Source: Candidatus Dormiibacterota bacterium | GTDB taxonomy: Bacteria; Chloroflexota; Dormibacteria; Aeolococcales; Aeolococcaceae | Length of the DNA: 64,000 bases | NCBI GenBank assembly: GCA_963709585.1 | Contig: CAVPXI010000007.1 | Span: forward strand, 1 to 64,000 | Reading direction: 5' to 3' | Shown: in pieces, positions 6,894 through 48,856 of the stretch | How positions within the stretch are numbered: the stretch's first letter is position 1 | How the letters are laid out: the number at the start of each line of letters is the position of its first letter | Position numbers and translations under genes: made by a program | The notes under the pieces: generated by a model | What the model saw: the letters and a program-made list of their open reading frames with translations, nothing else | What the model was told of the DNA's origin: nothing | Database searches by the model: none

Positions 6894-7667
6894 ATGAACG
6901 TGGGGGGGAACGAGCTCGTGGTCGACTCGGACCACGAGCTCGCCCGCTTTGGGGCCCTCGAGGCTGGCCGGGCGTTGATGGCGCTGCGCGCCGAGCTCGG
7001 CTTCGAGGACTCGAAACGACTTCGCGATGAAGGCGATCGCATGTCACATCAGCTGTTGATGAGGCTGCTCGCCGAGCAACGCCCGGACGACGCGGTGTTG
7101 TCCGAAGAAGGCGTCGACGATCAGGCACGGCTTTCCGCGACACGTGTGTGGATCGTCGACCCACTCGACGGGACGCGTGAATTCGGAGAAGAGGGCAGGA
7201 CCGACTGGGCTGTCCACGTCGCCCTCATCGAGAACGGAAAGCCCATTGCGGCTGCCGTGTCACTCCCGGCGCGCGACCTGGTGATGTCGACATCCCCGGT
7301 CCCGCGTACATCCGAGCGACCACCCGGACGGCTCCGCATCGTTGTGAGCCGCTCCCACACCCCGCCCGAGGCACACGCGGTGGCAAAGGCGCTCGACGCC
7401 GAGCTCGTGTTCATGGGGTCGGCCGGAGCCAAGACCATGGCGGTGGTTCTCGGCAGCGCCGACGCCTACGTGCATATCGGCGGTCAATACGAGTGGGACT
7501 CCGCCGCGCCCGTCGGGGTCGCGCTTGCGGCCGGGTTCATGGCCACCCGCGTCGACGGGTCACCGCTGGTCTACAACCGGCAGAACCCGTGGCTACCGGA
7601 CCAGGTCGTGTGCCGCGCCGATCTCCACAATGCGATCATCGCTGCGGTCGCTTCAGCGGCCAACTGA
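6894..7667 (+). CDS. cysQ: 3'(2'),5'-bisphosphate nucleotidase CysQ
   Basis: LSEE, WIVDPLDGTREF, VVSRSH, MGSAGAK, EWDSAAP motifs; sulfotransferase neighbours. Confidence 0.92.
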   Translation: MNVGGNELVVDSDHELARFGALEAGRALMALRAELGFEDSKRLRDEGDRMSHQLLMRLLAEQRPDDAVLSEEGVDDQARLSATRVWIVDPLDGTREFGEEGRTDWAVHVALIENGKPIAAAVSLPARDLVMSTSPVPRTSERPPGRLRIVVSRSHTPPEAHAVAKALDAELVFMGSAGAKTMAVVLGSADAYVHIGGQYEWDSAAPVGVALAAGFMATRVDGSPLVYNRQNPWLPDQVVCRADLHNAIIAAVASAAN

Positions 7668-7702
7668 CCCTCGGTACGCAGCAGCTCGCGCGGGCTGCGA
7701 TC

Positions 7703-7720
7703 TCTCATCGGTATCTCAGA
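7703..7720 (+). promoter_or_regulatory. OmpR/PhoB-type direct-repeat box
   Basis: TCTCAT (7703) and TCTCAG (7714), 11 bp apart, upstream of ATG 7798. Confidence 0.4.
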
Positions 7721-7797
7721 ATTCCCGCTGCCACAATGGAAGCTGTGAGAGGAGCCCTGAAATTGCGCGCTCCGTTTGCGTGCACGGCCCGCTAACG

Positions 7798-8919
7798 ATG
7801 CTCAAAGCTAATCCGGAAAAGAGCGCGCGGCGCCGTGCAATCCTGCCGGCGGTTGCGGTCGCCGTGATGGTGGCCGGATGCGGCAGCCAGGCACCGCCCA
7901 GCCCGTCGGTCAGCGCGAGTCCTTCACCGACTCCCTTGTCGAGTTCGTCGCCGGTTCCGAGCCCATCGCTCGTTCTCAAGCCGATCCTCAGCGGGCTCCT
8001 GGATCGCAACGGCACGCCGCCGATCTCGTATGTCACCTCGCTCGGCGGCTTCGTCGTCAACGTTCGCTGGAGCGACCTGCAGCCACTGCGCGGTGGGCCG
8101 ATTGCGGCCGGCAACGCGATCGACCAGGCGATCACCAGCGCCCGCACGCTCAACGCCACCTATCACCTTGATCTCGGCCTGAAGCTCCGCGTCCTGGCGG
8201 GCGTCTCGGCGCCGCAATGGGCCAAGAACCTCGGGGGCTCGCCGATTTCCCTGATCAACCCGCAGAGCGGTGCGGCGGGCAGCATCGGACGGTTCTGGAC
8301 GGACCCGTTCGGCGAGGCATACGACCAGCTCGAGAGCCTGCTTGCAGCGAGGTACGACAACATTCAGGAGGTTCGCGAGGTGACCGTCTCCCGTTGCACG
8401 ACCTTCTACGATGAACCCTTCATTCGCGACACCGGGTACACGCCCAACGACACCGCGCTGCTCGATGCCGGCTACACCCTCGCTGCCGACGAGAACTGCC
8501 AGCGCGAGGAGATCGGTGCAAGTGCGGTCTGGCAACACACGCACGTCGACCTCGCCTTCAACCCTTTCGAGGTGGTCGACGCCGGCGGTTCCACCAGAGG
8601 TGATGAGCTGTTCACCGAGTCGATGATGCAGTACTGCCGCCAGATCCTCTCGTCGAGATGCGTTCTCGAGAACAACTCGCTGCGCACCCCGCCGCTGCAG
8701 AGCTACCTCGCGATGTACGCCGCGATGCAGTCGCTCGGAAAGCCGATCGCGTTTCAAACCGCAACCGGGTCGCGCATCGGGAGCCTGGCGGCCACGCTTG
8801 CCTACGCGATCAGCTTGGGTGCGAACTCCGTCGAGCTCCCTGGCGGCTACGAGTTGCTCGGCACACCGTCCACCCTTGCGGCGACCAATCACGCCTTGGC
8901 TGTCAACGTAATCCCCTGA
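7798..8919 (+). CDS. lipoprotein, probable TIM-barrel glycoside hydrolase
   Basis: Lipobox VAGC, S/P linker, VNVRWSDLQP..IDQAI..LRVLAG..APQW..FW..LAARYD pattern typical of clan GH-A-like proteins. Confidence 0.6.
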   Translation: MLKANPEKSARRRAILPAVAVAVMVAGCGSQAPPSPSVSASPSPTPLSSSSPVPSPSLVLKPILSGLLDRNGTPPISYVTSLGGFVVNVRWSDLQPLRGGPIAAGNAIDQAITSARTLNATYHLDLGLKLRVLAGVSAPQWAKNLGGSPISLINPQSGAAGSIGRFWTDPFGEAYDQLESLLAARYDNIQEVREVTVSRCTTFYDEPFIRDTGYTPNDTALLDAGYTLAADENCQREEIGASAVWQHTHVDLAFNPFEVVDAGGSTRGDELFTESMMQYCRQILSSRCVLENNSLRTPPLQSYLAMYAAMQSLGKPIAFQTATGSRIGSLAATLAYAISLGANSVELPGGYELLGTPSTLAATNHALAVNVIP

Positions 8920-8949
8920 TGTGGGCTCACTTTCACTGAGTTACTTCCA

Positions 8950-9055: not shown

Positions 9056-9739
9056 GTGCTTCACATGAGAGCGGTCGAGGGACCGTGCAGGGTGCTTCTT
9101 GTGCGCCATGGCACCACGCGCATGAACATAGAGAATCGGTACCGTGGCCGGTGGGATGTCCCCCTGGACGCGCAGGGGTACCAGGAGGCCGTGGATGCCG
9201 CCAGGGCACTCTCCAATGCAGGCCTGAATGCGGTGTACACCGGACCACTCCGCCGGACGATTGCGACGGCGCAGATCATCGCCGACGAGGCGGGCGTACC
9301 TGACATTCGCATCCTCCAGGGGCTCATCAACCTCGACTACGGGATCTGGCACGGCATGACCTCGAAGGAAGCGTCCGTCACCGACCCAGCGGCCTTCGAG
9401 GCCTACCGGACTGCACCGATGACGTGCGTCTGCCCCAACGGCGAACGCCTCGTCGACGCGCGGGATCGCATGCTCGAGGCGGTGGAATTGATCGGTTCAC
9501 GTCACCAGGGAGAGACTGTGGTTGGCGTCACGCACGCGGTCATGATCCGTCTCGTGATTGCCCATCTCGAGGGCATCGACGGTGGGAGCTGGCGGGTGCC
9601 CGTCAACCGCGGTGGCATCGTCGAATTCCAGGTCGAGAACGGCACCATGAAACTGGTGACTCCGGTCGAGCCCGGCTCAGACCAGGAAGAGGCGCCGGCC
9701 ACGCATCAGGATCAGATCACACGTAACGCCAGCGCTTGA
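9056..9739 (+). CDS. histidine phosphatase family protein
   Basis: LVRHG, GPLRRT.ATA, DYGIWHG, CPNGE, VTHA. Confidence 0.9.
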   Translation: MLHMRAVEGPCRVLLVRHGTTRMNIENRYRGRWDVPLDAQGYQEAVDAARALSNAGLNAVYTGPLRRTIATAQIIADEAGVPDIRILQGLINLDYGIWHGMTSKEASVTDPAAFEAYRTAPMTCVCPNGERLVDARDRMLEAVELIGSRHQGETVVGVTHAVMIRLVIAHLEGIDGGSWRVPVNRGGIVEFQVENGTMKLVTPVEPGSDQEEAPATHQDQITRNASA

Positions 9740-10640
9740 GCAGCAGCCAGCTCATCACGGTGACCAGCTTCCGGCTCTGAGCCGGAAGCTTGGTGCGCCA
9801 CTCGTCGTCTTCGCGCAGCCTGATCGTCCCCTGGACGAGGCGCGAGTCGTTGCCCACTGCCGTGTGGTCCTCGCGCATGTGCACCGTCGGCGGTGTGATG
9901 AAGTCGAGATCATGAGCGCCGGCCGGATGGCCCGCGAAGGCTGCGATCCGTTCCAGTCGCTGCCGCGGCGCCCTCACGATATCTTCGTAGCGTTCCACGA
10001 TTCCCGGGATCCCGGCGACGCGGATAGTGTCGAAGATGAGGTGATACCCGATCCAGCGCAGCGTGATGACCGGCGCCGTGTAGCGGTGTTTCGGGACGAC
10101 ACGGTCGATGCTGTCCTGCATCACCTGCTCTTTGGATGACGAGTACGCCGTCCCGCGACTGTCGCGCACGAGGTCGAGGATACGCAGCTCGAATCCGGGA
10201 ACGCCTCGGAGTGCCAGCGCGTACGCCGGCGCCTTGGTGGAATCCACCACGATCTCGGCGCCCGACACCGTGCTGACTGCTCCATAGAGCTTGCCGAGGA
10301 GTTCTCGATAGCGGCGCAACCTCCGCGCGAAACCGGGGGAGAGCGAGGGAAACACCAGGAGCGGGATGTGCCGCTGCCGGGTTACCTGCGGATGGAGTTT
10401 CACCAGCTCCGCAGCGTCAGTCCCGTCCCAGCCACCGAATGCTGCTTCGCCGACAGCCTGCCAGTACGGGCAGTCCCGAAACCGGCGGCCGCATCCGCAC
10501 AGCCGGTTCTCGGTGATGCTGTGCGTCGTGATCAGACCGAACTCCCCGGTGGAGACGAAGCCGGGGATCTGGCCGAGCATGCGATCCACCAGTGTGCTGC
10601 CACTACGCGTGCACCCACCGATGTAGAGAATCCTGCGCAT
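9717..10640 (-). CDS. PAPS-dependent sulfotransferase
   Basis: 5'-PSB GCTRSGST, LCGCG..C..W insert, VDSTK, 3'-PB LVRDSRGTAYS, RYED; start MRRILY at 10640. Confidence 0.9.
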   Translation of the reverse strand: MRRILYIGGCTRSGSTLVDRMLGQIPGFVSTGEFGLITTHSITENRLCGCGRRFRDCPYWQAVGEAAFGGWDGTDAAELVKLHPQVTRQRHIPLLVFPSLSPGFARRLRRYRELLGKLYGAVSTVSGAEIVVDSTKAPAYALALRGVPGFELRILDLVRDSRGTAYSSSKEQVMQDSIDRVVPKHRYTAPVITLRWIGYHLIFDTIRVAGIPGIVERYEDIVRAPRQRLERIAAFAGHPAGAHDLDFITPPTVHMREDHTAVGNDSRLVQGTIRLREDDEWRTKLPAQSRKLVTVMSWLLLKRWRYV

Positions 10641-10665: not shown

Positions 10666-13600
10666 CTATTTGAAGGTCGCGATGGCGCCGATCCACGCGA
10701 CTGATGAGCTGAGGGTCGCCGCGAAGCTCTGCGCTCCAGTGGCACTGACCACGAGCCAGGCCGCCTGCTCGCCGGTCTGGTTACCCGAGACGGTGGACTG
10801 CTGGAACGGCAGGGGCGTGTAGGCGACAGTCTGCTTGCTGACACTCACCGCGCTGTTCCAGCCGATGTCGGCGATGACGATCTCGCTTGCCTGCGAGGTG
10901 GTCAAGGTCGTCCCGGTCGACGCGGTGGTGCTGGCCCCCGTCGCCGTCATCGTCTTGTCGAGCGGGGTTGCCGTGGCGCCGGCGATGTCGATCACGGTCA
11001 TCGCCAGCGAGGCAGTCCCACTCACGGTAACGGTGACCGAGGTCACGCTGGCGGCCCCGGCGACGTACCAGATCTCGTCGTCGCCCTGACCGAACTGTGA
11101 ACTCTCTGCCTTTGCCCACGTGTTGTGTCCGGACGAGTTGGTGACGCCCACGACGTTGGTCAGCGAACCGCTGCGGTCCTTGACGGTGACCACGAGAAGG
11201 TCACCAGCGCCCGTGGCGATACCCGTCGACGCCGACAACGTGGTACTCCCCGTGGTGCCGGCGGCGCCGAAGGTCCTGACCACCTGCGGCGCTTTTGGGA
11301 TCGCGGAGAGCTGGAAGTTCTGGGTTGTCGTGCCCCCTGGGCTCACCGTGAAGGGATTGCTCGTCTGCCCCACGTATGAGGTCGCTGCGACCGACGCGGT
11401 GTAGGAGCCGGGAACGATCTGCGTGAAACTGTAGGCGCCGGAGCTGTTGGTGGTGACGCTCCCGACCCGGCACGTGCAGGTCACCGTGGCATTCGGTATC
11501 GCGGTGTGGGTACTTGCATCGGTCACCACTCCACTCACCCCCCCGTCCTCGGTGAGGGCGACATTTTCGCTGGTCGTGTTGGGAGCGGTCACCGTGACAC
11601 CGGTGATCGTCTGGGTCACGTACCCGCTCGCCGTAAACGTCAGCGAGTATGCGGAGCCGGTCGGGACCATCGTGAAGGCGTAGTCGCCGGAGCCGTCGGT
11701 TGTAGTCATGCCCGATGGGCAGCCCCCACCACAGGTCACCGTCACCCCTGAGAGCAGGCTGTTGGTCTGCGCGTCGGTGACCGTCCCCGTGATCGCGCCG
11801 TCCTCGGTGAGGGCGACATTCTCGGTGGTGGTGGCGGGTCCGGCGACCACGACGCCCGTGATCGTCTGCGTCACATACCCGCTCGCGGCGAACGTCAGCG
11901 AGTACGAGGAGCCATCGGGGACCGCTGCGAACGCATAGTTACCCGAGCCGTCGGTCGCCGCGGTGTTTGTCGGGCACCCTCCGGCGCACGTGACTGTCAC
12001 CCCTGAGATCGGCGTGGCGGTCTGCTGGTCGGTGACCGTCCCGCTGATCCCGCCGTCTTCCGTGAGCGCGACGGTCTCGGTGCTGGTGGTGCCCGGCGTC
12101 ACCACGATTCCGGAGGCCGTCTGGGAGACGTACCCGGCGTCGCTGAAGATGAGCGAGTAGGTGCTCGGGGCGACATTCGTGAACGCGTAAAAGCCCGACC
12201 CATCGGTCGTTGCGGTGGTGGTTCCGCAGGCACTGCAGGTGACCGTCACCCCCGCGATCGGCAGCGCGGTTTGCGCGTCGGTCACTGTCCCGCTGATCCC
12301 GCCGTCCTCCGTCAGCGCGATGTTCTCCACGGTCGTGTTGGGACCGGTCACCGTGACGCCCGTGCTCGTCTGCGTGACGTACCCGCTCGCGGCGAAGGAG
12401 ACGGTGTATGCGGAGCCGTTCGGGACCATGGTGAAGCTGTAATTGCCCGAGATATCGGTCGTGGCAGTGGTCGTCGGGCAGCCACCACCACAGTTGACCG
12501 TCACCCCTGAGATCGGCGTGCCGGTCTGCGCGTCTTTGACCGTCCCGGTGATCCCACCATCCTCGGTCAGGGCGGCGCTCTCGGTAGTGGTGTTACCCGA
12601 CGTGACAGTGACACCCGTAACCGTCTGGGTGACGTATCCGGCGTCGCTGAAGGTGAGCGAATACGAGCCTGGCGGAACACTGGTGAACGAGTAGTTTCCA
12701 AAAGCATCCGTCGTGGCGCTTCCGCTCTGGCACGTGCACGTCACGGTCGCGCCTGCGAGAACTGGCTGACCGCTGGCGGTGCCATCCGTGACCTGCCCTG
12801 TGATGGTTCCGGGCGTTCGAGTCAGTGCGACGTTCTCTGTGGTCGCATGCCCGCTCGTGACAGCGACGTTGCTGAGTGATTGACCGACATAGCCGGGCTG
12901 CGAGAAGGTCATCGAATACGTGCCCGGAGCGACATTCGCGAACGAGTAGCTTCCACCCGTGCCTGTCGAGACGCCACCGCTGCTACACGTACACGTCACC
13001 GTGGCACCGGTGATCCCGGCTGCGGTCTGTGCGTCTGTGACCGTGCCTCCGATGGATCCGGTCGTCGGAGCCGATCCGAAGGCGCCGGTCAGATCACCGT
13101 TCACCGAATTGCTGGATCCCCCGAGGAGCGGCCCAACGCCATAGCTCTCCTCGAGTGCTCGCAACGTCCCGTAATGGTCACCGGTTCCAGTGAACGCACC
13201 CAGGCCCTTGTTGTTGGCAGACACGACGATGGTGGCGATGTGGCCCCCTGGTGCGGTAAGTCCGCAGCAGCCTGACAAGTCGCCGGTAGCCTCATCCCAG
13301 GTGATGATCACGATGCCGTTCTGCTTGAACCAAGTCGAGTTCAGCACCGGTGCGATATTGCTGGACAGCCAGTTGTCGCCGGCCTTGATGAGGGCGCCGT
13401 TGGAGGCGCCCGCGCAAGTCGAACCGGTATTGGTGTCTCCGTGCATCTCGTCGCAATCATTGGGCGTGATGAAAACGAAATCCGGTGCGTTGGTAGCGGT
13501 GAGATCGGACACCAGGCTGCTCGAGGTGGAATAGGGCACGACTCCCTCAGAGCTGAGATTGGCGGCGCTGCACCACCCTCCGGATGCCGTCGAGTAATTC

Positions 13601-39904: not shown

Positions 39905-40817
39905 TCAATTCGCCAGCAGGGCATTGATCGCAGCGACGTCGGCCTTGGCCTCGAAGAGCTTGCCCGAGGGCGAGCGCAAGGAGACAAGCGCGTTACGAAC
40001 CGCAGTGACCGTCGCCTTGTTGGCTGGGAACCCGCTCGGGCTGAGGCTCATGACCGCCGCGACCGCTGACTCCACAACCTGCCTTGCGGCGGCGATCGAA
40101 GCCGATAGATCGGCGAGTCTGGCGACCTCAAGGCTGTGATTCGGGTTGCTGCCGGCCACGCCCGCGACGGCGGACTGGAGCTGCTGATACCGAGTTGCGA
40201 GGTCGTTGAGCTCACGCAGCTCCCCGCCACCGGCGATGGCCAGGTGCGTCATGGGCAGGATCAGGCCGGCAACGCGAGTTCGACGGACCGATGCTGGTGA
40301 CATCGCTCCGGAGCACGTCGGGAAGCGAATCGTTCACGATGCTCGAGCCGAGCCCAGCGAGCTGGGCGTTGACGCCGTAGAGCATGGACAGGAGCGTCGC
40401 CGAAAGGCTGCTGCCGGAAAGCGTGACGCTGTTCAGGAACGTGTCGGCCCGGACATCCGCGATCAGCGTGTTGACATACCCCTGGCGCTTGGCGATCTCT
40501 TTTGCCCCTGTCGTCTGGAGGCTGGTGAAAGCCTCGGAGCGAATCAGGGCGGTGACGCTGGTCAGCGCATTGATCTCGACTTGGACGCCGGCGGGTGCAC
40601 CGTCGCTCTGGACGGCGTTCGCCGCAGCCAGCTCAGCCTGGACGGCCTGGTCGATAGCGCTGTCGATGGTGTTGCCGGCCTGGGTGTACGAGGGAGGTGC
40701 GCTGGCCGGGATCCCGACCACGGCATTGCCGGCGACAGCCGAACAGCCGGCCAAGAGGAACCCGATTGCGGCCGCGCTTGCGATCAGCGACGATGATCTC
40801 GCCACAGGTCGTTCCAT
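39905..40817 (-). CDS. helical lipoprotein of unknown function, frameshift near 40280
   Basis: Lipobox LAGC; ORF 40212-40907 continues into ORF 39905-40303 if one A is removed (SIGPS/TRVAGLILP). Confidence 0.7.
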
Positions 40818-41164
40818 GTCCCAACCACCCCCACGTGTTATCCCGGAGAAGTGTCCCCGACGGCTGCGCGTCGCCCTTCCGAGATTGGATCTGTCCGAAC
40901 GCATCATGACGTAGTGTGCCGTGTTTTGTCAAAAGTTTGGAGTTCATCTGCGCCCTCACGGGAGGGCATGAGAGCCACCGCTCGGCCCGAGGCCACGAAG
41001 CCCCGACGGCCGCGGGCGGAATCGCGTCAAGCGAACGGATAGCGTCATTTGATTTTCGCGGCTGGCAGCCGTACACTCAGCCGAAGGAACGGGTCCGGGA
41101 GCGCTGGCGGGCACCCAAGTCGCCGTTGGCGGCAGCGCTTCGTATCGACAGGGGGAAACGGGTC

Positions 41165-43163: not shown

Positions 43164-43790
43164 TCAGACGGGCAATACGGTCCTCTTGAAGTTGGCATTC
43201 GTGACAAACGCGAACGAGCAATAGATCGCCGCGACCGCTGTGAGCAGGGCAAGGATGCCGGAGATCTGGTTCCAGCCCGCGCTCGGCAGGCTCTTGCCCC
43301 AGAAGGCAATCGCCAGCGTGATGAACGTGAGAGCGAGAAGGAAGAACACCAGCGACACCCCACGCGAAGCCCCACCCAGCGAGGCGACGAACATGTAGGC
43401 CGTGAAGATGCCCCATGCAAGTGCATACAGGCCGAGGATGGGAGTCGGGTCCTTGGGAAGACCCGGCGCGAACGTTGTGTTGATCAGCACGAAGCTGATC
43501 CAGAACAACCCGTAACTCGTGAATGCGGTTGCCCCGAATGTGTTACCGACCTTGAACTCCCACATGCCGGCCAGGATCTGTCCGACCCCACCGAAAGCGA
43601 TGGCCATTGCCAGGACAACGACCGCCGAGCCGGCAGTCGGTCCCGGAGCCGCGGTGATGAAGCCCGCGTTGATGGCCCCGAGCAAGAGCGTCGTCATGCC
43701 GAATCCGATCAGCCCGAGAGGAGCTGGGTTTGCGACCGGTGCCACCGTCTCAGCAATCCCTGAGGAGACGGGTGAAGCTGCGGTTGCCAT
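43164..43790 (-). CDS. satP: acetate uptake transporter (SatP/GPR1/FUN34/YaaH)
   Basis: ANPAPLGL signature, GNTFGATAFTSYGLFW; next to acs. Confidence 0.92.
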   Translation of the reverse strand: MATAASPVSSGIAETVAPVANPAPLGLIGFGMTTLLLGAINAGFITAAPGPTAGSAVVVLAMAIAFGGVGQILAGMWEFKVGNTFGATAFTSYGLFWISFVLINTTFAPGLPKDPTPILGLYALAWGIFTAYMFVASLGGASRGVSLVFFLLALTFITLAIAFWGKSLPSAGWNQISGILALLTAVAAIYCSFAFVTNANFKRTVLPV

Positions 43791-43873
43791 AGGTTTGTAG
43801 CCCTCCAATGAGTCCGGAGCGAGTCGCACTCCGGCGCGTGTTCGAAATCGAACTGTCCCCCATCGCGACGGAT

Positions 43874-44446
43874 CTACTGTTCTTTGGCTTCCTCCTCCGT
43901 GGCGCGGCGCTGGAGATCCGCGACGATGCTCGAATCTGCGAGCGTCGTGGTATCGCCGAGCTTGCGGTTCTCGGCGATGTCGCGGAGCAGGCGGCGCATG
44001 ATCTTTCCGCTTCTGGTTTTGGGCAGATCTGGCGTGAACGCGATCCATTTCGGCTTTGCGATCGGTCCGATCAACTTTGCGACGTGGTCGCGCAACTCGG
44101 CGATCAGCTCGGTCGATTCCTCGAAGCCGGATTGCACCGTCACGAAGGCCGAGATCGCCTGTCCGGTTTCGGGATCGCTCTTGGCCACCACTGCGGCTTC
44201 GGCAACCGCCGGGTGATCGACCAGGGCGGACTCGACCTCGGCGGTGGAGATGCGGTGCCCGGCGACGTTCATGACGTCATCGACGTACTTCCTCGCCTGC
44301 TCCGCCCAGAAGCCTTCGTTGTCAGCCTCGGCGGCCTCGAAGAGACTCTGGTCGGTGACCCTCGCCCTGGACAGGAACTCCGCGCTCGGTGCGAACGTGC
44401 GCCGCTCGTCGAGCAAGGTGTCGATGGTCTTGGCCCGCTCGCTCAT
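43874..44446 (-). pseudogene. acs: acetyl-CoA synthetase with large in-frame internal deletion
   Basis: N-terminus ([19 protein letters not shown]) joined directly to C-terminus ([19 protein letters not shown]...[24 protein letters not shown]); 190 aa versus about 650 for Acs. Confidence 0.88.
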
Positions 44447-44688: not shown

Positions 44689-46761
44689 GTGAAGACCATG
44701 GCTTCGCGTCCGTTTTTCGACGAGCCGCCGCCGGCGATGCCGCCTGCTCTCCCCGCGCCGCCACGGACCCGGAGCGGAGTCGGCGTCGCAGCGGCACCAA
44801 CCCGGTGGGTCAGGCTGCTGGTACGCGGCCGTGAGGACGATGCGGCCTGGGTTCGACCGTCGCTGATCGGGCTGCTCGGCATCGCCGCCCTCCTCTACCT
44901 CTGGGACCTCGGTGCGTCGGGCTGGGCGAACGCCTTCTACTCGGCCGCGGTCCAGGCCGGGTCGACGAGCTGGAAGGCGTTCTTCTTCGGGTCCTTCGAC
45001 GCGCCGAACTTCATCACCGTGGACAAGTCGCCGGCCGCGTTGTGGGTGATGGACCTGTCGGCGCGCGTTTTCGGCGTCAACGCCTGGAGCATCCTCGTCC
45101 CCCAGGCGCTCGAGGGTGTGGCCACCGTCGGCTTCACCTATCTGATCGTCCGGCGGTGGTTCCCGCCCGCAGCGGCTCTGATCGCCGGGGCGACCGTGGC
45201 GCTCACGCCCGTGGCGGCGCTCATGTTCCGCTTCGACAATCCCGACGCGCTGCTCGTGCTCCTGCTCACCATCGCCACATTCGCGACGGTGCGCGCGATC
45301 GAGGCCGGCAAGACCAGGTGGCTCGTGCTCGCGGCGACCCTGGTGGGCTTCGCCTTCCTGACCAAGATGCTGCAAGCGTTTCTCGTGGTCCCGGCGTTTG
45401 GCCTCGTGTACCTGATGGCGGCGCCGGTGTCGCTGCGACGGCGGATGACCCAGCTCGTTGTGGCGACGGCGGTTATGGTCGCCGCGTCGGGGTGGTGGGT
45501 CGCGATCGTGCAGCTCACGCCCGCAGCCGACCGTCCGTACATCGGCGGATCGCAGAACAACAGCCTTCTCAACCTGATCTTCGGCTACAACGGGTTCGGC
45601 AGGTTGACCGGGAACGAGACGGGCAGCGTGGGGACCACGGGTGCCGCCGGATCGATGTGGGGACCGACCGGCCTCGGCCGGCTCTTCAACGCGAGCTTCG
45701 GCGGCCAGGTCTCCTGGCTTCTTCCGGCCGCGCTCGTCCTGCTGGTCGCGGGGCTCGGACTCACGCTGACGCGAGCGCGCACGGATCGCACCCGCGCTGC
45801 ATTCCTGCTCTGGGGCGGTTCGCTGGTTGTGACCGCGCTCGTCTTCAGCCTGGCGGCCGGGATCATCCATCCCTACTACACCGTGGCCCTGGCTCCTTCG
45901 ATCGGGGCCCTGGTCGGCATGGGCAGCGTGCTGCTCTGGCGGCAACGATCACGAACATGGGCACGCCTCGTGCTCGCCGCCGCCGTCGGCGGCACCAGCG
46001 TGTGGTCGGCGCTGCTGCTGGAACGCAGCCCCGAGTTCGCCTCCGGGCTCGGCGCTGCTGTCGCGATCGTCGGCATCGGCGCGGCGATCGCGATCGTGGG
46101 CATGCCGCTCCTCCACCGGGCGGCGGTCGCAGCCGTGGTCGCCGTCGGGCTTGTGGCGGCGTTCGCCGGACCGACCGCCTACACCATCGACACCGTGCTG
46201 ACGACTCACTCCGGCGCCATCCCGTCGGCCGGTCCGGCGGTCACGGCCTCAGCCTCAGGCGGTGGTCCCGGCGGTTTCCCGGGCGGCTTCGGCGGCGGGG
46301 GCAGGCGTGGATTCCCCGGCGGCTTCGGAGGAGGTGGCTTCGGGGGCCGCGGAGGCATCCCGGGCGGCTTCGGCGGCGGTGGTCTCGGTCGAGGCGGCGG
46401 GTCGTTTCTCAACGCGGGTACACCGGGAGCCGCGCTGGTCGCACTGCTCGAAACCAACGCCGGCCAGTACACCTGGGTTGGTGCCACTATCGACGCTAAC
46501 TCGGCGGCAGGCTACCAGCTCGCCACCGACCTACCGATCATGGCGATCGGCGGATTCAACGGGACCGATCCGGCACCGACACTCGCTCAGTTCGAGCAGT
46601 ACGTCGCGCAGGGTCGCATCCACTACGTCCTCGCATCGGGCGGCAGACCAGGAGGCGGAAGCGGTACATCGGGGGCGATCGCCCAGTGGGTCGAGCAACA
46701 CTTCGCGTCGACGACCGTCGACGGCGTGGCCGTATACGACCTCACCCAGCCCGCGGGTTGA
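44689..46761 (+). CDS. ArnT/PMT-like GT-C glycosyltransferase with Gly-rich insert
   Basis: NAFYSAAVQAG, ITVDKSP, FRFDNPDALL, FLTKMLQA, GYNGFGRL, IGGFNGTDP. Confidence 0.9.
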   Translation: MKTMASRPFFDEPPPAMPPALPAPPRTRSGVGVAAAPTRWVRLLVRGREDDAAWVRPSLIGLLGIAALLYLWDLGASGWANAFYSAAVQAGSTSWKAFFFGSFDAPNFITVDKSPAALWVMDLSARVFGVNAWSILVPQALEGVATVGFTYLIVRRWFPPAAALIAGATVALTPVAALMFRFDNPDALLVLLLTIATFATVRAIEAGKTRWLVLAATLVGFAFLTKMLQAFLVVPAFGLVYLMAAPVSLRRRMTQLVVATAVMVAASGWWVAIVQLTPAADRPYIGGSQNNSLLNLIFGYNGFGRLTGNETGSVGTTGAAGSMWGPTGLGRLFNASFGGQVSWLLPAALVLLVAGLGLTLTRARTDRTRAAFLLWGGSLVVTALVFSLAAGIIHPYYTVALAPSIGALVGMGSVLLWRQRSRTWARLVLAAAVGGTSVWSALLLERSPEFASGLGAAVAIVGIGAAIAIVGMPLLHRAAVAAVVAVGLVAAFAGPTAYTIDTVLTTHSGAIPSAGPAVTASASGGGPGGFPGGFGGGGRRGFPGGFGGGGFGGRGGIPGGFGGGGLGRGGGSFLNAGTPGAALVALLETNAGQYTWVGATIDANSAAGYQLATDLPIMAIGGFNGTDPAPTLAQFEQYVAQGRIHYVLASGGRPGGGSGTSGAIAQWVEQHFASTTVDGVAVYDLTQPAG

Positions 46762-46764
46762 TCG

Positions 46765-47817
46765 CTACCGGCTCGACCACGCAGCGGCCGACGTCGCGTC
46801 CAGGTCGACGCTGGCGTCGGTGACGCGACGCGTCGCGCCCGGGTGAGCGCCGCCCGCATGGGCGATGTACCAGAGCCCGAAGGTTCCGTCCGGGTCCGCG
46901 GCATTCATATAGAGAAGGTTGTCGCCCGATGGGGACCATGACGGCGAGTTGCACAGACAGTTGGCGGCCAGCACGCGCGCCGGACCGAGCGAATTCCCCT
47001 CGAGGGTCGCGATCTCGAGATCCGCACTCTGTCCCGTATGGGTGCACACCATCGCCACGGTCACGCCGTCCGGCGCGACCGCCGGCGCGCCACAGTCCTG
47101 CTGTGGGGTGGTGAGCGTTCGCATCGCGCTGGTCGGGCTCGTCTGCAGGCCGAGCACGGTCACCACCGTCCCCTTCCCGGTGTTCGCGTAGCTCGAATAG
47201 AGCACGCTCCCGTCCGGCAGCGGCACCGGCGCGATGTCACCGCCGGTGTAAAGGTCGGGCACCGACCAGCGGGTTCCGGCGCTCACTCCAGTGATACCGA
47301 TGCTGAACGCCGCGCTGAGCGGTGCGGACCAGAGCGAGAAGTCCACCTCATAGCTCTGGTTGGGCGCCGGCTTGGGCGCGTCGGTTGCGAAGTACACGTC
47401 GCTCCCGTTGGGGCTGATCGACGGCCAAAGAATCCAATGGTCGAGAGACAGCGTCCCGTTAGTCGTCGACTGATCGTCGGACGTCATCCGGGTGAGGACC
47501 CGTCCCGAAGCCGCCACGTGATACAGGTCGGAGTACGCATCGAACCTGCGGATGACCAGCAGCGAACCGTCCGCCAGGACGCGCGGTTGTGTCCAGTCGC
47601 CACCCGACGGCAGCGCGAGCCGGCGGACGCTCGAACCGGAGATCGCATAGATCGAGCCCTCCTGGCTCACGTAGATCGTGCCTTGCAGCTGCACCTGCGG
47701 GCTGGTCGTGTTGATGAGCGCGGCGGCGGTCGTGTGTGTCTGCAGCATCGCCAGGGCCCGGTTCGCGGAAAGTCCGCTGGCGATCATCAGCACGATGACG
47801 AGGGAGGTACGCCTCAT
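46765..47817 (-). CDS. secreted TolB-like beta-propeller protein
   Basis: Signal peptide; PSISPNG, PAVAPDG, PSWSPSG PD40-like repeats. Confidence 0.75.
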   Translation of the reverse strand: MRRTSLVIVLMIASGLSANRALAMLQTHTTAAALINTTSPQVQLQGTIYVSQEGSIYAISGSSVRRLALPSGGDWTQPRVLADGSLLVIRRFDAYSDLYHVAASGRVLTRMTSDDQSTTNGTLSLDHWILWPSISPNGSDVYFATDAPKPAPNQSYEVDFSLWSAPLSAAFSIGITGVSAGTRWSVPDLYTGGDIAPVPLPDGSVLYSSYANTGKGTVVTVLGLQTSPTSAMRTLTTPQQDCGAPAVAPDGVTVAMVCTHTGQSADLEIATLEGNSLGPARVLAANCLCNSPSWSPSGDNLLYMNAADPDGTFGLWYIAHAGGAHPGATRRVTDASVDLDATSAAAWSSR

Positions 47818-47818
47818 C

Positions 47819-48856
47819 TCACGCCGCCGCCGGGAAGTATGCCGCGACCTCCGGCCTGATCAACGACCAGTCGGGCATCAGCGCATCCTGCCCACCCACG
47901 CGCACGCTGCTCGTGTACGGAGGCAGCAACACCACCTGCGTGATCGACGCGAGCGGCACCGACCCCGCAATCGGGAGCAGCCCGCTCACCTGGCCGATGC
48001 CCATGTCCGTCTGGAAGTTCGACCCGAGCGACGTCGCCAGGTTCGGAATGTCCGCGAATGAGATGTGCTTGGTCTTGGCGCGCAGCGCGATCAGGATCTG
48101 TTGCTGACGCTGCGACCGCGCAAAGTCGCCGTACGCATCATCGTGGCGCGCGCGCACGTACTCGAGTGCGAGCGAGCCGCTCATGTGCTGCGCACCCGGA
48201 AGCACGAGGATTCGCTGGTAGTCGAAGGGATTGCCGCCCGAGAGGTCCGCCGGGTAGTAGTCGTCCATCACCGGGTTGTTGGCGATCACGTTGACCCCGC
48301 CGAGGTCGTTCAGAACCGACACCAGCCCCTGCAGCCCGATCCACGCGTAGTAGTCGATGTGGACCCTGAGGTCGCGCTCCACGGTCTGGATCGCGCACTG
48401 GGCGCCGCCATGCAGGAATGCCTGGTCGATCTTGCCGTTGCTGCCGGTGCAGAGGCGGACCCAGAGATCGCGCGGAATCGAGAGCATGGTCACGTGCCTG
48501 GTCGACGGGTCGACCCGGGTGAGAATCATCGACTGGGTCAGGTAGTCGCCCTTGAACTTCGAATCGCTGTCGGAGCCGAGGAGGAGGAGCGTGAACGGCG
48601 ACTTCGACGAAAGGTTCTCGCTCGCCGCCACCGGCTTTAGCTGCGCGGTGCCGCCCAGCGAGGTGTTGACCTGGCCGGTGTCGCGGAGCGCGACCTGGAT
48701 CGCGGGCATGAAATACAGCGCGACGCCGGTGATGATCGAGACCACGAAGCCGGCCGCGACAAAGGATCCCCTGGTCACGCGCCGCCGGCCCGACTTCAGT
48801 GACGCGCGACGCCGGCGCACGGAGCGACGCCCTGAAAGATCGTACGAACGAGACAA
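47819..48856 (-). CDS. LCP (LytR-CpsA-Psr) family glycopolymer ligase
   Basis: N-terminal TM, LLLGSD, LSIPRD, ALEYVRARH, GDFARSQRQQ. Confidence 0.92.
   Translation of the reverse strand: MSRSYDLSGRRSVRRRRASLKSGRRRVTRGSFVAAGFVVSIITGVALYFMPAIQVALRDTGQVNTSLGGTAQLKPVAASENLSSKSPFTLLLLGSDSDSKFKGDYLTQSMILTRVDPSTRHVTMLSIPRDLWVRLCTGSNGKIDQAFLHGGAQCAIQTVERDLRVHIDYYAWIGLQGLVSVLNDLGGVNVIANNPVMDDYYPADLSGGNPFDYQRILVLPGAQHMSGSLALEYVRARHDDAYGDFARSQRQQQILIALRAKTKHISFADIPNLATSLGSNFQTDMGIGQVSGLLPIAGSVPLASITQVVLLPPYTSSVRVGGQDALMPDWSLIRPEVAAYFPAAA

What the first reader, a model, noticed from the sequence alone, without database searches (positions are those of the whole stretch)
6894..48856. Candidate system: sulfated surface polysaccharide coupled to an array of secreted phosphoesterases under cyclic-dinucleotide control
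Seen: priming GT, two GT4, flippase, Wzy, Wzz, LCP, four sulfotransferase domains and CysQ, interleaved with five secreted phosphoesterases, a GH-like lipoprotein, duplicated lipoproteins and two GEMM-I riboswitches. One sulfotransferase sits 25 bp downstream of, and co-oriented with, the three large phosphoesterases. Established: CysQ removes PAP released by sulfotransferases; LCPs attach glycopolymers to peptidoglycan. Inference: a sulfated wall polymer or matrix whose enzymes either scavenge phosphate (with sulfate sparing phosphate in the anionic polymer) or tailor the polymer. I know of no described locus with this combination but could not search. No PAPS synthesis genes (cysDN/cysC) are in the window.
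Basis: partly seen in the sequence, partly recalled or inferred. Interest (0 to 1): 0.8.

Follow-up and report, generated by a model that had tools for sequence, protein, structure and literature searches.

The report
Sulfated wall-polysaccharide locus with phosphoesterase cargo
An uncultured soil bacterium (Dormibacteria) carries a gene cluster for a probably sulfated cell-wall polysaccharide, and in this lineage a variable slot inside it holds five surface phosphoesterases and two riboswitch-controlled lipoprotein genes that are accessory to the polymer pathway.

Summary
The gene content is real. Found: CysQ, four sulfotransferase domains, priming transferase, two GT4, MurJ-type flippase, Wzy, Wzz, LCP, five PF04185 phosphoesterases, a duplicated lipoprotein and two c-di-GMP-I riboswitches. 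The "GH-like lipoprotein" matched no family. The genome is a Dormibacteria MAG. It has sat-cysC on another contig, and a relative has a fused PAPS synthase inside the same cluster, so sulfation is well supported.

The phosphoesterases have a minimal phospholipase C / AcpA fold with the catalytic motifs kept.

Linkage to the polysaccharide genes recurs but is not obligatory. It holds in 9 of 17 assessable relatives. In 8 of 17 no phosphoesterase was found in the 11-20 kb fetched there; in three of the four annotated the stretch holds NHL-propeller protein arrays. Four genomes lack the enzyme family altogether.

The riboswitches are the genome's only two. They control only an uncharacterised secreted protein and the smallest phosphoesterase, probably as translational OFF switches. 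They carry C where G20 is expected.

Verdict: a sulfated envelope-glycan locus with variable surface-protein cargo. This is a new variant of a known kind. The phosphate-sparing coupling remains unproven.

The parts
5088..6878 (+). Secreted protein with about 110-aa C-terminal repeats. It is a conserved neighbour of cysQ.
   Evidence: No Pfam family. tblastn finds it next to CysQ in L078, L088 and L090. The same repeat module matches 15 further places in the genome, this gene among them, besides the phosphoesterase's own C-terminus.
6894..7667 (+). CysQ-like 3'(2'),5'-bisphosphate nucleotidase, which removes PAP
   Evidence: PF00459 at 112.5 bits. The best NCBIfam match is TIGR01331 at 114.9 bits, below its cut-off. 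It is syntenic with the cluster in G180, G271, G273, G277 and G281.
7798..8919 (+).
   Evidence: A lipobox is seen in the translation. No family match. It is conserved beside GT4a or CysQ in relatives.
9056..9739 (+). Cytoplasmic histidine phosphatase (His_Phos_1), convergent with sulfotransferase 1
   Evidence: PF00300 at 153.8 bits. The pairing with ST1 is kept in L086, L088 and L011.
9717..10640 (-). Sulfotransferase 1 (ST1)
   Evidence: PF13469. Its start at 10640 lies 25 bp after the PE1 stop.
10666..14166 (-). PE1: PLC/AcpA-type phosphoesterase, seven CarboxypepD_reg repeats and a 210-aa C-terminal 'domain X'
   Evidence: PF04185 at 52.8 bits and PF13620 x7. Domain X was found by blastp/tblastn.
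14248..18444 (-). PE2: domain X, phosphoesterase, five CarboxypepD_reg repeats, domain X. The start codon is uncertain.
   Evidence: PF04185 at 71.4 bits.
18642..21614 (-). PE3: phosphoesterase, two TIG domains and a C-terminal repeat module
   Evidence: PF04185 at 56.6 bits and PF01833.
21749..21829 (+). c-di-GMP-I riboswitch aptamer 1. The conserved leader runs to ATG 21880.
   Evidence: RF01051 at 51 bits. An orthologous aptamer precedes the same gene in 7 of 7 loci scanned.
21880..23235 (+). Lipoprotein 'Ulipo-a', a member of a widespread uncharacterised secreted family
   Evidence: Lipobox. No Pfam or PDB relative. 1441 relatives at E<=1e-5.
23378..23458 (+). c-di-GMP-I riboswitch aptamer 2. 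The conserved leader runs to ATG 23512.
   Evidence: RF01051 at 57.9 bits. It is a direct repeat of aptamer 1, 87% identical over 99 nt. It is present in 4 of 7 orthologous loci.
23512..24686 (+). PE4: small lipoprotein phosphoesterase. The window misses one C at 23588-92.
   Evidence: PF04185 at 77 bits. Gap against L006 and L007. An extra C behind 23587 is seen in DNA runs X1 and X5.
24733..25959 (-). Lipoprotein 'Ulipo-b', inverted copy of Ulipo-a
   Evidence: Inverted repeat of 1034 nt, 98% complementary. The copies are 99.4% identical over 972 nt.
26407..28233 (+). PE5: domain X plus phosphoesterase
   Evidence: PF04185 at 85.2 bits. An orthologue stands next to HTH/ST2 in the loci.
28230..28670 (-). 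XRE-type HTH regulator
   Evidence: PF01381. It is conserved between PE5 and ST2 in 8 loci.
28812..29765 (+). Sulfotransferase 2 (ST2)
   Evidence: PF13469 at 78.7 bits and PF00685. It stands 38-92 bp downstream of a co-oriented phosphoesterase in L015, L016, L023, L024, L027, L031 and L032.
29803..32177 (-). Two GT4 glycosyltransferases (29803-30939 and 30936-32177)
   Evidence: PF00534, PF13439 and related families.
32227..33756 (-). Wzy_C-domain polymerase. A ligase or O-oligosaccharyltransferase role is not excluded.
   Evidence: PF04932 at 87.9 bits. There is a weak NCBIfam match to TfpM, E 3e-7.
33854..35611 (-). MurJ-family (MOP) flippase
   Evidence: PF03023 at 197 bits. TIGR01695 scores 209 bits, below its cut-off of 235.55.
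35620..37563 (-). Double sulfotransferase (ST34)
   Evidence: PF13469 and PF00685 in the two halves. Full-length orthologues occur in relatives.
37581..38984 (-). Wzz-type chain-length determinant
   Evidence: PF02706.
39011..39865 (-). Conserved surface protein with a Pro/Thr linker and a C-terminal membrane anchor
   Evidence: Translation. It is syntenic in L077, L080, L082 and L084.
39905..40907 (-). One lipoprotein gene, split in the window by an extra base at 40279
   Evidence: Two ORFs overlap in different frames. One base is 'left out' at 40279 in runs X1, X5 and X20. The two halves are contiguous in relatives.
40916..42691 (+). Priming polyprenyl-phosphate hexose-1-phosphate transferase
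   Evidence: PF02397 at 229 bits. TIGR03025 scores 419 bits, above its cut-off.
43164..44048 (-). Acetate-transporter family protein (AceTr). Its role in the locus is unknown.
   Evidence: PF01184 and NF038013. It is syntenic in L077 and L082.
44689..46761 (+). GT-C glycosyltransferase (PMT_2 / YkcB_C)
   Evidence: PF13231 and PF24878.
46765..47817 (-). PD40 beta-propeller protein
   Evidence: PF07676.
47819..48856 (-). LCP glycopolymer-peptidoglycan ligase
   Evidence: PF03816 at 126 bits. TIGR00350 scores 105 bits, above its cut-off. It is adjacent to the cluster in G180 and G195 but was not found in the 20 kb fetched from G277 or G281.

Best explanation
The window holds a conserved Dormibacteria cell-envelope locus for a sulfated polysaccharide.

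How the polymer is probably made (pathway steps are inferred from family knowledge):
- The repeat unit is built on a polyprenyl phosphate by the priming transferase and the two GT4 enzymes.
- It is sulfated in the cytoplasm by PAPS-dependent sulfotransferases (four domains). CysQ removes the PAP by-product. PAPS comes from sat-cysC, encoded elsewhere in the genome.
- A MurJ-type flippase exports the unit. Wzy polymerises it under Wzz control.
- The neighbouring LCP enzyme probably ligates the polymer to peptidoglycan.

Inside this locus, between the cysQ/lipoprotein end and the GT4 genes, lies a variable slot for arrays of exported surface proteins. In this lineage the slot holds about 20 kb:
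- five paralogous surface proteins whose catalytic core is a minimal phospholipase-C/AcpA-type phosphoesterase;
- two of the sulfotransferase genes and a histidine phosphatase;
- a cassette in which two duplicated c-di-GMP-I-type riboswitches each precede a lipoprotein gene, one an uncharacterised secreted enzyme-like protein and one the smallest phosphoesterase.

When the aptamer is folded, the Shine-Dalgarno sequence is paired with a conserved CUCC. The switches therefore most likely turn translation OFF at high ligand.

The phosphoesterases are accessory cargo. They are co-inherited and partly co-transcribed with sulfotransferases, but the polymer pathway does not need them. Their most likely job is hydrolysis of phosphoesters at the cell surface. 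This last point is inferred.
For: Gene families.

Sulfation:
- sat and cysC are in the genome.
- A fused APS_kinase-PUA_2-ATP-sulfurylase ORF lies in the cluster of G277 (L080:8253-9908), next to a Sulfotransfer_3 ORF and the priming transferase.
- cysC lies within about 10 kb of the double sulfotransferase in G281, G305, G249 and G165.

Phosphoesterase identity:
- The model has pLDDT 94.
- The best PDB folds are RePLC 8k3g (E 2e-12, TMq 0.75), PlcN, PlcH, plant NPC4, a Streptomyces GPE phosphodiesterase and AcpA; sulfatases rank lower.
- The family profile hits AcpA at E 1e-8. The EEN motif aligns with QEN, and h-p-S-x-P-N aligns with PlcH G-P-T-N-P-N.

Core versus slot:
- The block Wzz-ST34-MurJ-Wzy-GT4b-GT4a, with CysQ and the 7798-type lipoprotein, is conserved with or without phosphoesterases.
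- Phosphoesterases are linked in 9 of 17 assessable genomes and not found there in 8 of 17.
- NHL-repeat protein arrays fill the slot in L081, L076 and L121.

Riboswitches:
- Two RF01051 matches, the only ones in the 3.52-Mb assembly.
- Conserved before the same genes in relatives: 7 of 7 loci for the first and 4 of 7 for the second.
- The leader is conserved up to the start codon.
- An alternative helix competes with the aptamer's 3' strand.
- With the aptamer enforced the SD is paired; with the alternative helix enforced it is more open, in 10 of 13 leaders.

Expression: contigs of one metatranscriptome (X20) lie on ST34, Wzz, the two conserved surface-protein genes and the priming transferase. 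This is weak, because DNA carry-over is not excluded.
Against: - No chemistry exists. Sulfation, the sugars and wall attachment are all inferred.
- The CysQ and MurJ matches are below the NCBIfam equivalog cut-offs.
- The LCP-PD40-GT-C block is adjacent in G000, G180 and G195, but was not found in the 20 kb fetched from G277 and G281. The LCP assignment therefore rests on neighbourhood in one genus.
- The 'cargo, not coupled' reading is challenged by repeated tight phosphoesterase-to-sulfotransferase pairs. The gap is 25 bp here and 38-92 bp in L015, L016, L023, L024, L027, L031 and L032.
- Linkage also persists in at least four genus codes (g1, g5, g84, g88) with two different gene orders.
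- All relatives belong to one family, so they are not independent.
- In 3 of 13 leaders the folding model does not show the OFF pattern. ViennaRNA cannot model ligand binding.
- The aptamers carry C (11 of 13) or A (2 of 13) where the Rfam consensus has the conserved unpaired G that I take to be Vc2 G20. The ligand is therefore not certain.
Confidence: 0.55

Rival explanations
1. Phosphate-sparing module. Under phosphate limitation the cell raises sulfation of its anionic wall polymer. At the same time the co-transcribed surface phosphoesterases strip phosphate from phospholipids, phosphate-containing wall polymers or soil organic phosphorus. Sulfate then replaces phosphate as the envelope's charge carrier.
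For: - Phosphoesterase-to-sulfotransferase gene pairs with gaps of 25 bp and 38-92 bp suggest co-transcription.
- The fold relatives listed include phospholipases C and acid phosphatases. That such enzymes are induced by phosphate starvation in other organisms is recalled, not tested here.
- This genome has ten copies of the domain.
- The organisms come from soil and peat records.
Against: - No pst, phoU, phoR or other Pho-type genes were seen near any of the ten copies.
- The total number of sulfotransferase domains is the same (four) in phosphoesterase-less relatives, with two genes sitting beside the priming transferase. The insert's sulfotransferases therefore look relocated, not added.
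- Four relatives with the sulfation cluster have no phosphoesterase of this family at all.
- The only regulator seen is a cyclic-dinucleotide riboswitch, not a phosphate sensor.
Confidence: 0.15
2. Polymer-tailoring or release enzymes. The phosphoesterases cut phosphodiester bonds of the glycopolymer itself, for example the sugar-phosphate link that LCP enzymes make to peptidoglycan, or phospho-substituents. The riboswitch-controlled unknown enzyme cuts the glycan. At low c-di-GMP both are made, and the anchored layer is shed or remodelled.
For: - Phospholipase C chemistry is cleavage of an alcohol-phosphate diester, and the fold is of that type.
- The riboswitches look like OFF switches, which fits enzymes made at low c-di-GMP.
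- Riboswitch-controlled genes in relatives include secreted glycoside-hydrolase-like proteins: GHL15 in G195, E 1e-32, and GH42-like in G133, 21.7 bits against a cut-off of 21.
- Other paralogues of the phosphoesterase carry CBM_4_9 or chitobiase-associated domains.
- Relatives of the unknown enzyme are fused to ricin-type lectin, fascin-like and T9SS domains.
Against: - No substrate evidence exists.
- The unknown enzyme could not be modelled (pLDDT 41.8) and has no PDB or Pfam relative.
- Only one of the five phosphoesterases is riboswitch-controlled.
- LCP adjacency is not conserved outside the genus.
Confidence: 0.13
3. Protein glycosylation system. The Wzy_C protein is an O-oligosaccharyltransferase. 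It transfers the sulfated oligosaccharide onto the large Thr/Ser-rich surface proteins encoded in the slot (phosphoesterase arrays here, NHL arrays elsewhere), as S-layer glycan clusters sit next to their S-layer genes.
For: - The Wzy_C protein has a weak match to the O-linking oligosaccharyltransferase TfpM, E 3e-7.
- The repeats of the large phosphoesterases match an S-layer glycoprotein model through their repeats, E 9e-54, far below its cut-off.
- In different genomes the slot holds different arrays of large exported proteins.
Against: - A Wzz chain-length determinant and an LCP ligase point to a polymer, not a short protein-linked glycan.
- The TfpM score (29.8 bits) is far below the model's cut-off of 600.
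- No shared acceptor or anchor domain links the phosphoesterase and NHL arrays. Domain X is absent from the NHL loci.
Confidence: 0.07

Closest known systems
Synechan (xss) cluster of Synechocystis sp. PCC 6803
   Same: A Wzx/Wzy-type polysaccharide cluster that includes sulfotransferase genes and yields a sulfated exopolysaccharide (PMC8205485; search listing and abstract only).
   Different: It is a cyanobacterial, diderm system producing a released EPS. From what I read it has no LCP ligase, no phosphoesterase array and no riboswitch. No sequence comparison was made here.
wps-1 cluster of Actinoplanes missouriensis
   Same: A Wzx/Wzy/Wzz cluster with two sulfotransferases and a glycoside hydrolase in a Gram-positive soil bacterium, predicted to make a sulfated polysaccharide. 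Sulfation is not yet verified there either (PMC13390465; passages read).
   Different: It is an actinomycete sporangium-matrix function. The passages read mention no phosphoesterase cargo, CysQ or cyclic-dinucleotide riboswitch. No sequence comparison was made here.
PF04185 phosphoesterases: PlcH/PlcN of Pseudomonas, fungal and plant non-specific phospholipase C, Francisella AcpA
   Same: The fold is the same (TMq 0.72-0.76). The metal-binding E-N, the Ser/Thr-x-P-N nucleophile stretch and the C-terminal motifs align. The Pfam gathering score is passed.
   Different: The core here is only about 265-290 residues, against 430-700 in the solved enzymes. Pfam matches only profile positions of about 105-356. 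Sequence identity is 11-16%. Here the core is fused to CarboxypepD_reg, TIG and two unnamed modules. The substrate is unknown.
c-di-GMP-I (GEMM-I) riboswitches, for example Vibrio cholerae Vc2, and the cGAMP-sensing GEMM-Ib variants
   Same: The full-length RF01051 architecture scores 51-58 bits. The gene context of surface and secreted proteins is typical for the class.
   Different: The conserved unpaired G just 5' of the first helix is C in 11 of 13 and A in 2 of 13 leaders. I equate this G with Vc2 G20, which contacts one guanine of the ligand, while A at that place marks cGAMP sensors (PMC6140456; passages read). The mapping of G20 to the Rfam column is my inference. Ligand specificity is therefore open.
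Bacillus subtilis phosphate-starvation switch from teichoic to teichuronic acid, with PhoD/GlpQ teichoicases (recalled; no paper read)
   Same: Conceptually the same as the phosphate-sparing rival: an anionic, phosphate-free wall polymer together with secreted phosphodiesterases.
   Different: There the genes are dispersed and PhoPR-controlled, and the anion is uronate, not sulfate. Nothing here shows phosphate control.

Membership tests
Wzx/Wzy-dependent polysaccharide pathway | Polyprenyl-phosphate priming sugar-phosphate transferase | tested here: met
   PF02397 at 229 bits. TIGR03025 scores 419 bits against a cut-off of 295.55.
Wzx/Wzy-dependent polysaccharide pathway | MOP-superfamily flippase, Wzy-type polymerase and Wzz/PCP co-polymerase in one cluster | tested here: met
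   PF03023 at 197 bits, PF04932 at 87.9 bits and PF02706 at 36.6 bits, in adjacent co-oriented genes at 32227-38984. The flippase is MurJ-type, not Polysacc_synt-type.
Wzx/Wzy-dependent polysaccharide pathway | The product is a polymer of repeat units | not testable with these tools
   This needs chemistry.
PAPS-dependent glycan sulfation | Sulfotransferase domains with a PAPS-binding loop | tested here: met
   PF13469 or PF00685 in four domains. G-x-x-R-x-G-S-T type N-terminal loops are visible in the translations. The motif's identity as the PAPS-binding loop is recalled.
PAPS-dependent glycan sulfation | PAPS synthesis in the genome (ATP sulfurylase and APS kinase) | tested here: met
   PF01747 at 304.7 bits and PF01583 at 202.2 bits, side by side on contig C23. 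A fused enzyme lies inside the cluster of relative G277.
PAPS-dependent glycan sulfation | PAP removal by CysQ | tested here: inconclusive
   An Inositol_P family member whose best NCBIfam match is CysQ, but at 114.9 bits against a cut-off of 228.8. Conserved synteny supports the role.
PF04185 phosphoesterase (phospholipase C / AcpA) | Pfam gathering score | tested here: met
   Five of five genes score 52.8-85.2 bits against 23.
PF04185 phosphoesterase (phospholipase C / AcpA) | Alkaline-phosphatase-type fold closest to solved PLC/AcpA enzymes | tested here: met
   Foldseek top hits are 8k3g, 9gy2, 9gye, 8haw, 8yk5 and 2d1g, with E from 2e-12 to 1e-8 and TMq 0.72-0.76.
PF04185 phosphoesterase (phospholipase C / AcpA) | Catalytic nucleophile and metal ligands | tested here: met
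   Invariant across 43 sequences: H3, E10, S47, N155, H161 and D197; N11, D159 and E198 are kept in at least 90%. These align with the AcpA and PlcH motifs. The functional roles of the residues are recalled.
PF04185 phosphoesterase (phospholipase C / AcpA) | Full-length match to the family profile | tested here: not met
   Only profile positions of about 104-356 of 356 are matched in the window's five genes. The N-terminal E-N strand aligns only below threshold. This is a shortened sub-family.
c-di-GMP-I riboswitch (RF01051) | Covariance-model score above gathering, over the full model length | tested here: met
   51 and 57.9 bits against 35, model positions 1-87.
c-di-GMP-I riboswitch (RF01051) | Ligand-contacting G20 (Vc2 numbering) | tested here: not met
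   C in both window aptamers and in 11 of 13 leaders, A in 2 of 13. The mapping of G20 to the Rfam column is my inference. The role of G20 is taken from PMC6140456.
c-di-GMP-I riboswitch (RF01051) | Binds c-di-GMP and changes expression | not testable with these tools
   Only thermodynamic modelling was possible.
LCP-mediated wall attachment | An LCP-domain protein genetically tied to the cluster | tested here: inconclusive
   TIGR00350 scores 105 bits, above its cut-off. The gene is adjacent in G000, G180 and G195, but was not found in the 20 kb fetched from G277 or G281.

The most novel reading that the evidence does not exclude
The insert is a cyclic-dinucleotide-gated envelope-remodelling module. 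At low second-messenger level the cell translates a new kind of secreted glycan-cutting enzyme (the unnamed, widespread Ulipo family) and a minimal phospholipase-C-type phosphodiesterase. Together with their larger paralogues these detach or trim the sulfated, peptidoglycan-anchored polymer, or exchange phosphate for sulfate in the envelope's charge budget. The riboswitches, with C in place of G20, would define a natural GEMM-I specificity variant.
Probability: 0.15. Interest if true: 0.8.

Novelty: new variant of a known kind. Interest (0 to 1): 0.5.

Why it matters
- By the papers listed or read here, sulfated bacterial polysaccharides are best established in cyanobacteria (PMC8205485, PMC13390465); the listing also holds reports of sulfated capsules or exopolymers in a few marine bacteria. 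A conserved sulfation cluster with its own PAPS synthase in Dormibacteria would extend them to an abundant, uncultured soil, peat and permafrost lineage. It would also say something concrete about that lineage's unknown cell envelope.
- The locus shows a clear core-plus-variable-slot design, with phosphoesterase arrays or NHL-propeller arrays in the slot. That makes it a handle for studying surface diversity in these bacteria.
- The genome's only two c-di-GMP-I-type riboswitches sit here. They carry an unusual base at a ligand-contact position.
- One of the two genes they control belongs to a large secreted protein family with no Pfam or PDB relative (1441 relatives). Both the riboswitches and this protein can be tested in vitro without culturing the organism.

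Tried and rejected
- **Sulfatase reading of the phosphoesterases.** Rejected. Sulfatases rank below the PLC/AcpA enzymes, and the nucleophile stretch is S-x-P-N or S-P-H-D, not the C/S-x-P-x-R that I recall for sulfatases.
- **Shared wall-anchor domain between phosphoesterase and NHL cargo.** The 210-aa domain X occurs seven times in the genome, six of them in phosphoesterase proteins. It is absent from the NHL loci, so there is no support.
- **Pho-regulon neighbourhood of the five other phosphoesterase copies.** None found. One copy lies next to GGDEF and EAL genes.
- **Structure of the unknown lipoprotein.** The model failed (pLDDT 41.8), so no fold search was made. Profile searches against PDB sequences gave only a GH5 hit at E 0.037, and nothing with a more diverse alignment. 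hhalign against other riboswitch-controlled proteins and against the 7798 lipoprotein gave probabilities of 0.2-1.5%.
- **PDB sequence search with single phosphoesterases.** No hit.
- **Out-of-frame query.** My first tblastn query for the unknown lipoprotein was out of frame. It still found the loci. It was redone in frame.
- **Riboswitches elsewhere.** None in eight loci: six of the second gene order or a mixed one (L011, L015, L023, L024, L032, L037) and two first-order loci cut short upstream (L027, L038).
- **Literature.** No paper holds 'Dormibacterota' with 'sulfotransferase', or 'Dormibacter*' with 'riboswitch'. One search was badly designed and useless. One search ('G20C') gave nothing relevant.
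- **Earlier findings of the scan.** None.
- **Read laying.** The metatranscriptome X20 gave no contigs on 23243-28578. Run X18 is probably DNA and was not used.

Full report
**What is in the window**

The window is the first 64 kb of contig C7 of a 3.52-Mb, 24-contig assembly. The assembly is 88.8% complete by marker genes and has about 66% G+C. The closest public relatives of its genes are MAG records titled Candidatus Dormibacterota/Dormibacteria.

- CysQ-like (6894-7667+)
- a lipoprotein without any family (7798-8919+)
- His_Phos_1 (9056-9739+)
- sulfotransferase ST1 (9717-10640-)
- three large phosphoesterases, PE1-PE3 (10666-21614-)
- riboswitch 1 (21749-21829+) followed by lipoprotein Ulipo-a (21880-23235+)
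- riboswitch 2 (23378-23458+) followed by the small phosphoesterase PE4 (to 24686+)
- Ulipo-b (24733-25959-)
- PE5 (26407-28233+)
- an XRE-type HTH gene
- sulfotransferase ST2 (28812-29765+)
- two GT4, Wzy_C, a MurJ-family flippase, a double sulfotransferase (ST34) and Wzz
- two conserved surface-protein genes
- the priming transferase
- an AceTr-family transporter, a GT-C glycosyltransferase, a PD40 propeller and LCP (to 48856)

The 'GH-like lipoprotein' has no family match.

**Two assembly errors**

The PE4 ORF begins at 23610 with only the tail of a lipoprotein signal peptide. The conserved SD-ATG of the riboswitch leader is at 23512, in another frame. Against orthologues L006 and L007 the window lacks one base in a C run. 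Contigs of two DNA runs from two studies carry an extra C behind 23587: X1 at depth 15 of 15, X5 at 5.4 of 5.4. PE4 is therefore intact in the population.

The same call shows one base fewer at 40279 in X1, X5 and X20. That joins the overlapping ORFs 40212-40907 and 39905-40303 into one lipoprotein gene, as in relatives, where the two halves are contiguous.

**Sulfation is well supported**

- ATP sulfurylase and APS kinase lie side by side on contig C23, next to a LysR gene.
- The genome's CysH-like protein has the CC and CxxC pairs that I recall as marking APS reductases. That would leave APS kinase for sulfation. This step is inference.
- APS kinase is common in the family: 52 of 61 genomes, a tally that includes three unpublished genomes. 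Its presence alone is therefore not specific.
- In relative G277, however, one ORF of 551 aa combines APS_kinase, PUA_2 and ATP-sulfurylase. It sits inside the cluster, beside a Sulfotransfer_3 gene and the priming transferase.
- cysC lies within about 10 kb of the double sulfotransferase in G281, G305, G249 and G165 too.
- CysQ lies beside the cluster in 5 of the relatives' stretches mapped (G180, G271, G273, G277, G281).

**What the phosphoesterases are**

The five catalytic domains are 39-62% identical to PE4. An AlphaFold model built on 43 sequences has pLDDT 94.

Foldseek places the model next to:
- a fungal non-specific phospholipase C (8k3g, E 2e-12, TMq 0.75)
- Pseudomonas PlcN and PlcH
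- plant NPC4
- a Streptomyces glycerophosphoethanolamine phosphodiesterase
- Francisella AcpA

Sulfatases come lower. Single sequences find nothing in the PDB. The family profile finds AcpA at E 1e-8, and it aligns the E-E-N and S-x-P-N stretches with the corresponding AcpA and PlcH motifs.

These enzymes are thus a shortened sub-family of PF04185, with a core of about 265-290 residues. The core is fused to CarboxypepD_reg repeats, TIG domains, a 210-aa unnamed 'domain X' and a repeat module. Domain X has seven copies in the genome, six of them in phosphoesterase proteins. The repeat module matches 15 further places in the genome besides PE3 itself.

The genome has ten copies of the catalytic domain. 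The five outside the window have no pst/pho neighbours. One stands beside GGDEF and EAL genes, and two carry carbohydrate-binding-type domains.

**Is the linkage conserved? Forward test**

A scan of one genome per species found 373 relatives of the domain. Of the 70 loci kept, 15 come from 15 different MAG records and have ST2-GT4a-GT4b-Wzy (mostly also MurJ, ST34 and Wzz) within 10 kb.

Two gene orders occur:
- Type A, as here: PE3 - riboswitch - Ulipo - (riboswitch) - PE4 - inverted Ulipo - PE - HTH - ST2 - GT4a.
- Type B: PE - ST2 - Ulipo-like - PE - lipoprotein - GT4a.

A phosphoesterase directly upstream of, and co-oriented with, ST2 recurs in seven loci (38-92 bp gaps).

**Is the linkage conserved? 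Reverse test**

The double sulfotransferase was found in 23 of 201 class genomes at E<=1e-20 (12 of 19 in the same genus). The tally includes G000 and one unpublished genome.

Of 17 genomes with a near-full-length orthologue that could be assessed:
- 9 have phosphoesterases next to the cluster: G303, G273, G216, G253, G174, G249, G305, G231 and G165.
- In 8 no phosphoesterase was found in the 11-20 kb fetched beyond GT4a: G195, G271, G240, G299, G259, G180, G277 and G281.
- G297 was not assessable because its contig is too short.

G180, G277, G281 and G297 have no phosphoesterase domain anywhere at E<=1e-15.

In the phosphoesterase-less genomes the same position, between GT4a and the lipoprotein/CysQ end, holds other genes. 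There are four paralogous NHL-repeat propeller proteins in each of L081, L076 and L121. L122 has an ABC transporter, GHL15, a TIG protein and a GH42-like protein instead. In G277 and G281, CysQ and the lipoprotein abut GT4a directly.

Those genomes carry two sulfotransferase genes beside the priming transferase. The total of four sulfotransferase domains is thus kept and only their place differs.

The simplest reading is a conserved core with a variable slot for exported-protein arrays. The phosphoesterases are frequent but dispensable cargo. All these genomes belong to one family, so the counts are not independent events.

**The riboswitch cassette**

- The two RF01051 matches are the only ones in the assembly.
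- They are direct repeats of each other, and the similarity extends through the SD and start codon.
- In seven type-A loci the first aptamer precedes the Ulipo gene in all seven. The second precedes PE4 in four.
- Eight other loci have none; two of them (L027, L038) are type-A loci cut short upstream.
- In a class sample, 18 of 141 genomes have the family, a tally that includes one unpublished genome.
- In G204, of another genus, an aptamer again stands directly before a divergent phosphoesterase (31% identity). In G133 two aptamers follow a phosphoesterase gene and precede two GH42-like secreted proteins.
- Other targets in relatives are sigma-70-region-4 proteins, sortase-like proteins, TadE, GHL15 and a CAP-domain protein. 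This is the usual surface-trait repertoire of this riboswitch class.

**How the riboswitch probably works**

The 13 leaders are conserved up to the ATG. RNAalifold predicts a long helix between the aptamer's 3' strand and a downstream segment that contains CUCC.

With the canonical aptamer pairs enforced, the SD GGAG is paired. With the alternative helix enforced it is more open, in 10 of 13 leaders. Three leaders do not follow this pattern. I infer translational OFF switches. This rests on modelling only.

**An unusual base in the aptamer**

The conserved unpaired G just before the first helix is C in 11 and A in 2 of the 13 leaders. I equate this G with Vc2 G20. It contacts one guanine of the ligand, and A at that place marks cGAMP sensors (PMC6140456; passages read). 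The column mapping is my inference. The ligand may be c-di-GMP with altered affinity, or another dinucleotide.

**The unknown lipoprotein (Ulipo)**

- It has no Pfam or NCBIfam match.
- It has no PDB sequence relative.
- The Atlas finds only 'hypothetical' clusters.
- The structure model failed (pLDDT 41.8).

The family is nevertheless large: 1441 proteins at E<=1e-5 among the 8000 candidates scored. Identity is about 50% in records titled Bacteroidota (with T9SS sorting domains) and Nakamurella (fascin domain), and in proteins whose Pfam accessions I recall as ricin-type lectins. Such fusions are typical of secreted carbohydrate-active enzymes. That is a lead, not a finding.

The two copies in the window are 99.4% identical. 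In L007 they are 99.3% identical, and in six other genomes 79-91%, while copies from different genomes are about 80-84% identical. The copies are therefore homogenised independently in at least two lineages.

**Expression**

Contigs of one soil metatranscriptome (X20) lie on ST34, Wzz, both conserved surface-protein genes and the priming transferase. They carry 3-21 differences from the window per contig. This is a weak sign that the core is transcribed in nature, because DNA carry-over cannot be excluded.

**Comparison with known systems**

Sulfotransferase-bearing Wzx/Wzy clusters are known. Examples are synechan in Synechocystis (PMC8205485, abstract only) and the predicted wps-1 cluster of Actinoplanes (PMC13390465, passages read). 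The core here is a new member of that kind in a new lineage.

What I did not find described is the variable slot with PLC/AcpA-type arrays and the riboswitch cassette. No paper in the searched library holds 'Dormibacterota' with 'sulfotransferase', or 'Dormibacter*' with 'riboswitch'. Subscription journals are not covered by that library.

**Verdict**

Sulfation is likely. Coupling to the phosphoesterases is real at the level of recurrent linkage and probable co-transcription, but it is not obligatory. Cyclic-dinucleotide control is limited to two genes. This is a new variant of a known kind, with interest 0.5.

Noticed in passing
window 21749-21829 and 23378-23458; A3 column 15: Both aptamers have C at the conserved unpaired G just 5' of the first helix (Rfam model position 11). 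I equate this with the ligand-contacting G20 of Vc2. Across 13 orthologous leaders it is C in 11 and A in 2. It may be a natural specificity or affinity variant of GEMM-I.
   Followed up: partly
window 22209-23242 and 24726-25759: The two Ulipo copies form a 1-kb inverted repeat around riboswitch 2 and PE4. Copy-to-copy identity is 99.4% here and 99.3% in L007, but 79-91% in six other genomes. Between genomes it is about 80-84%. This indicates independent gene conversion. No inversion of the middle segment was seen in the nine stretches compared (eight genomes).
   Followed up: partly
window 23588-23592 and 40279: Two single-base homopolymer-type differences between the assembly and contigs of independent DNA runs. 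Each breaks a gene (PE4, and the 39905-40907 lipoprotein). Other frameshifts of this kind may exist in the assembly.
   Followed up: yes
window 18645-19934 and 5649-6875; G000 contigs C4, C5, C6, C11, C14, C15, C23: A module of about four repeats of roughly 110 aa, with a recurring R-I/V-C-D-T-R start. It has no Pfam family. It ends PE3 and fills the protein next to CysQ, and it matches 15 further places in the genome besides PE3 itself. It is possibly a lineage-specific surface-display or wall-binding module.
   Followed up: partly
window 10669-11301, 14251-14895, 17479-18174, 26632-27291; G000:C15:36556-39132 and 111341-111976: An unnamed 210-aa 'domain X', 40-59% identical between copies. 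Six of its seven genomic copies lie in phosphoesterase proteins, at either end of the catalytic domain.
   Followed up: partly
L096 (G000:C15:199000-218999), 6999-10573: Another small phosphoesterase paralogue lies convergent to adjacent GGDEF and EAL genes. This is a second link between this enzyme family and c-di-GMP genes in the same genome.
   Followed up: no
window 51210-53471: A MASE9-GAF-GGDEF-EAL protein is encoded 2.4 kb beyond the LCP gene, after a TMEM175-type channel and an HtrA-type protease.
   Followed up: no
L081, L076, L121 (G195, G180, G240): Arrays of four paralogous 650-750-aa NHL-repeat propeller proteins occupy the slot that holds the phosphoesterases in the window's genome.
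   Followed up: partly
L117 (G133:C11:58500-65000): A phosphoesterase gene is followed by two tandem c-di-GMP-I aptamers. Each precedes a GH42-like secreted protein, and one of these has C-terminal repeats.
   Followed up: partly
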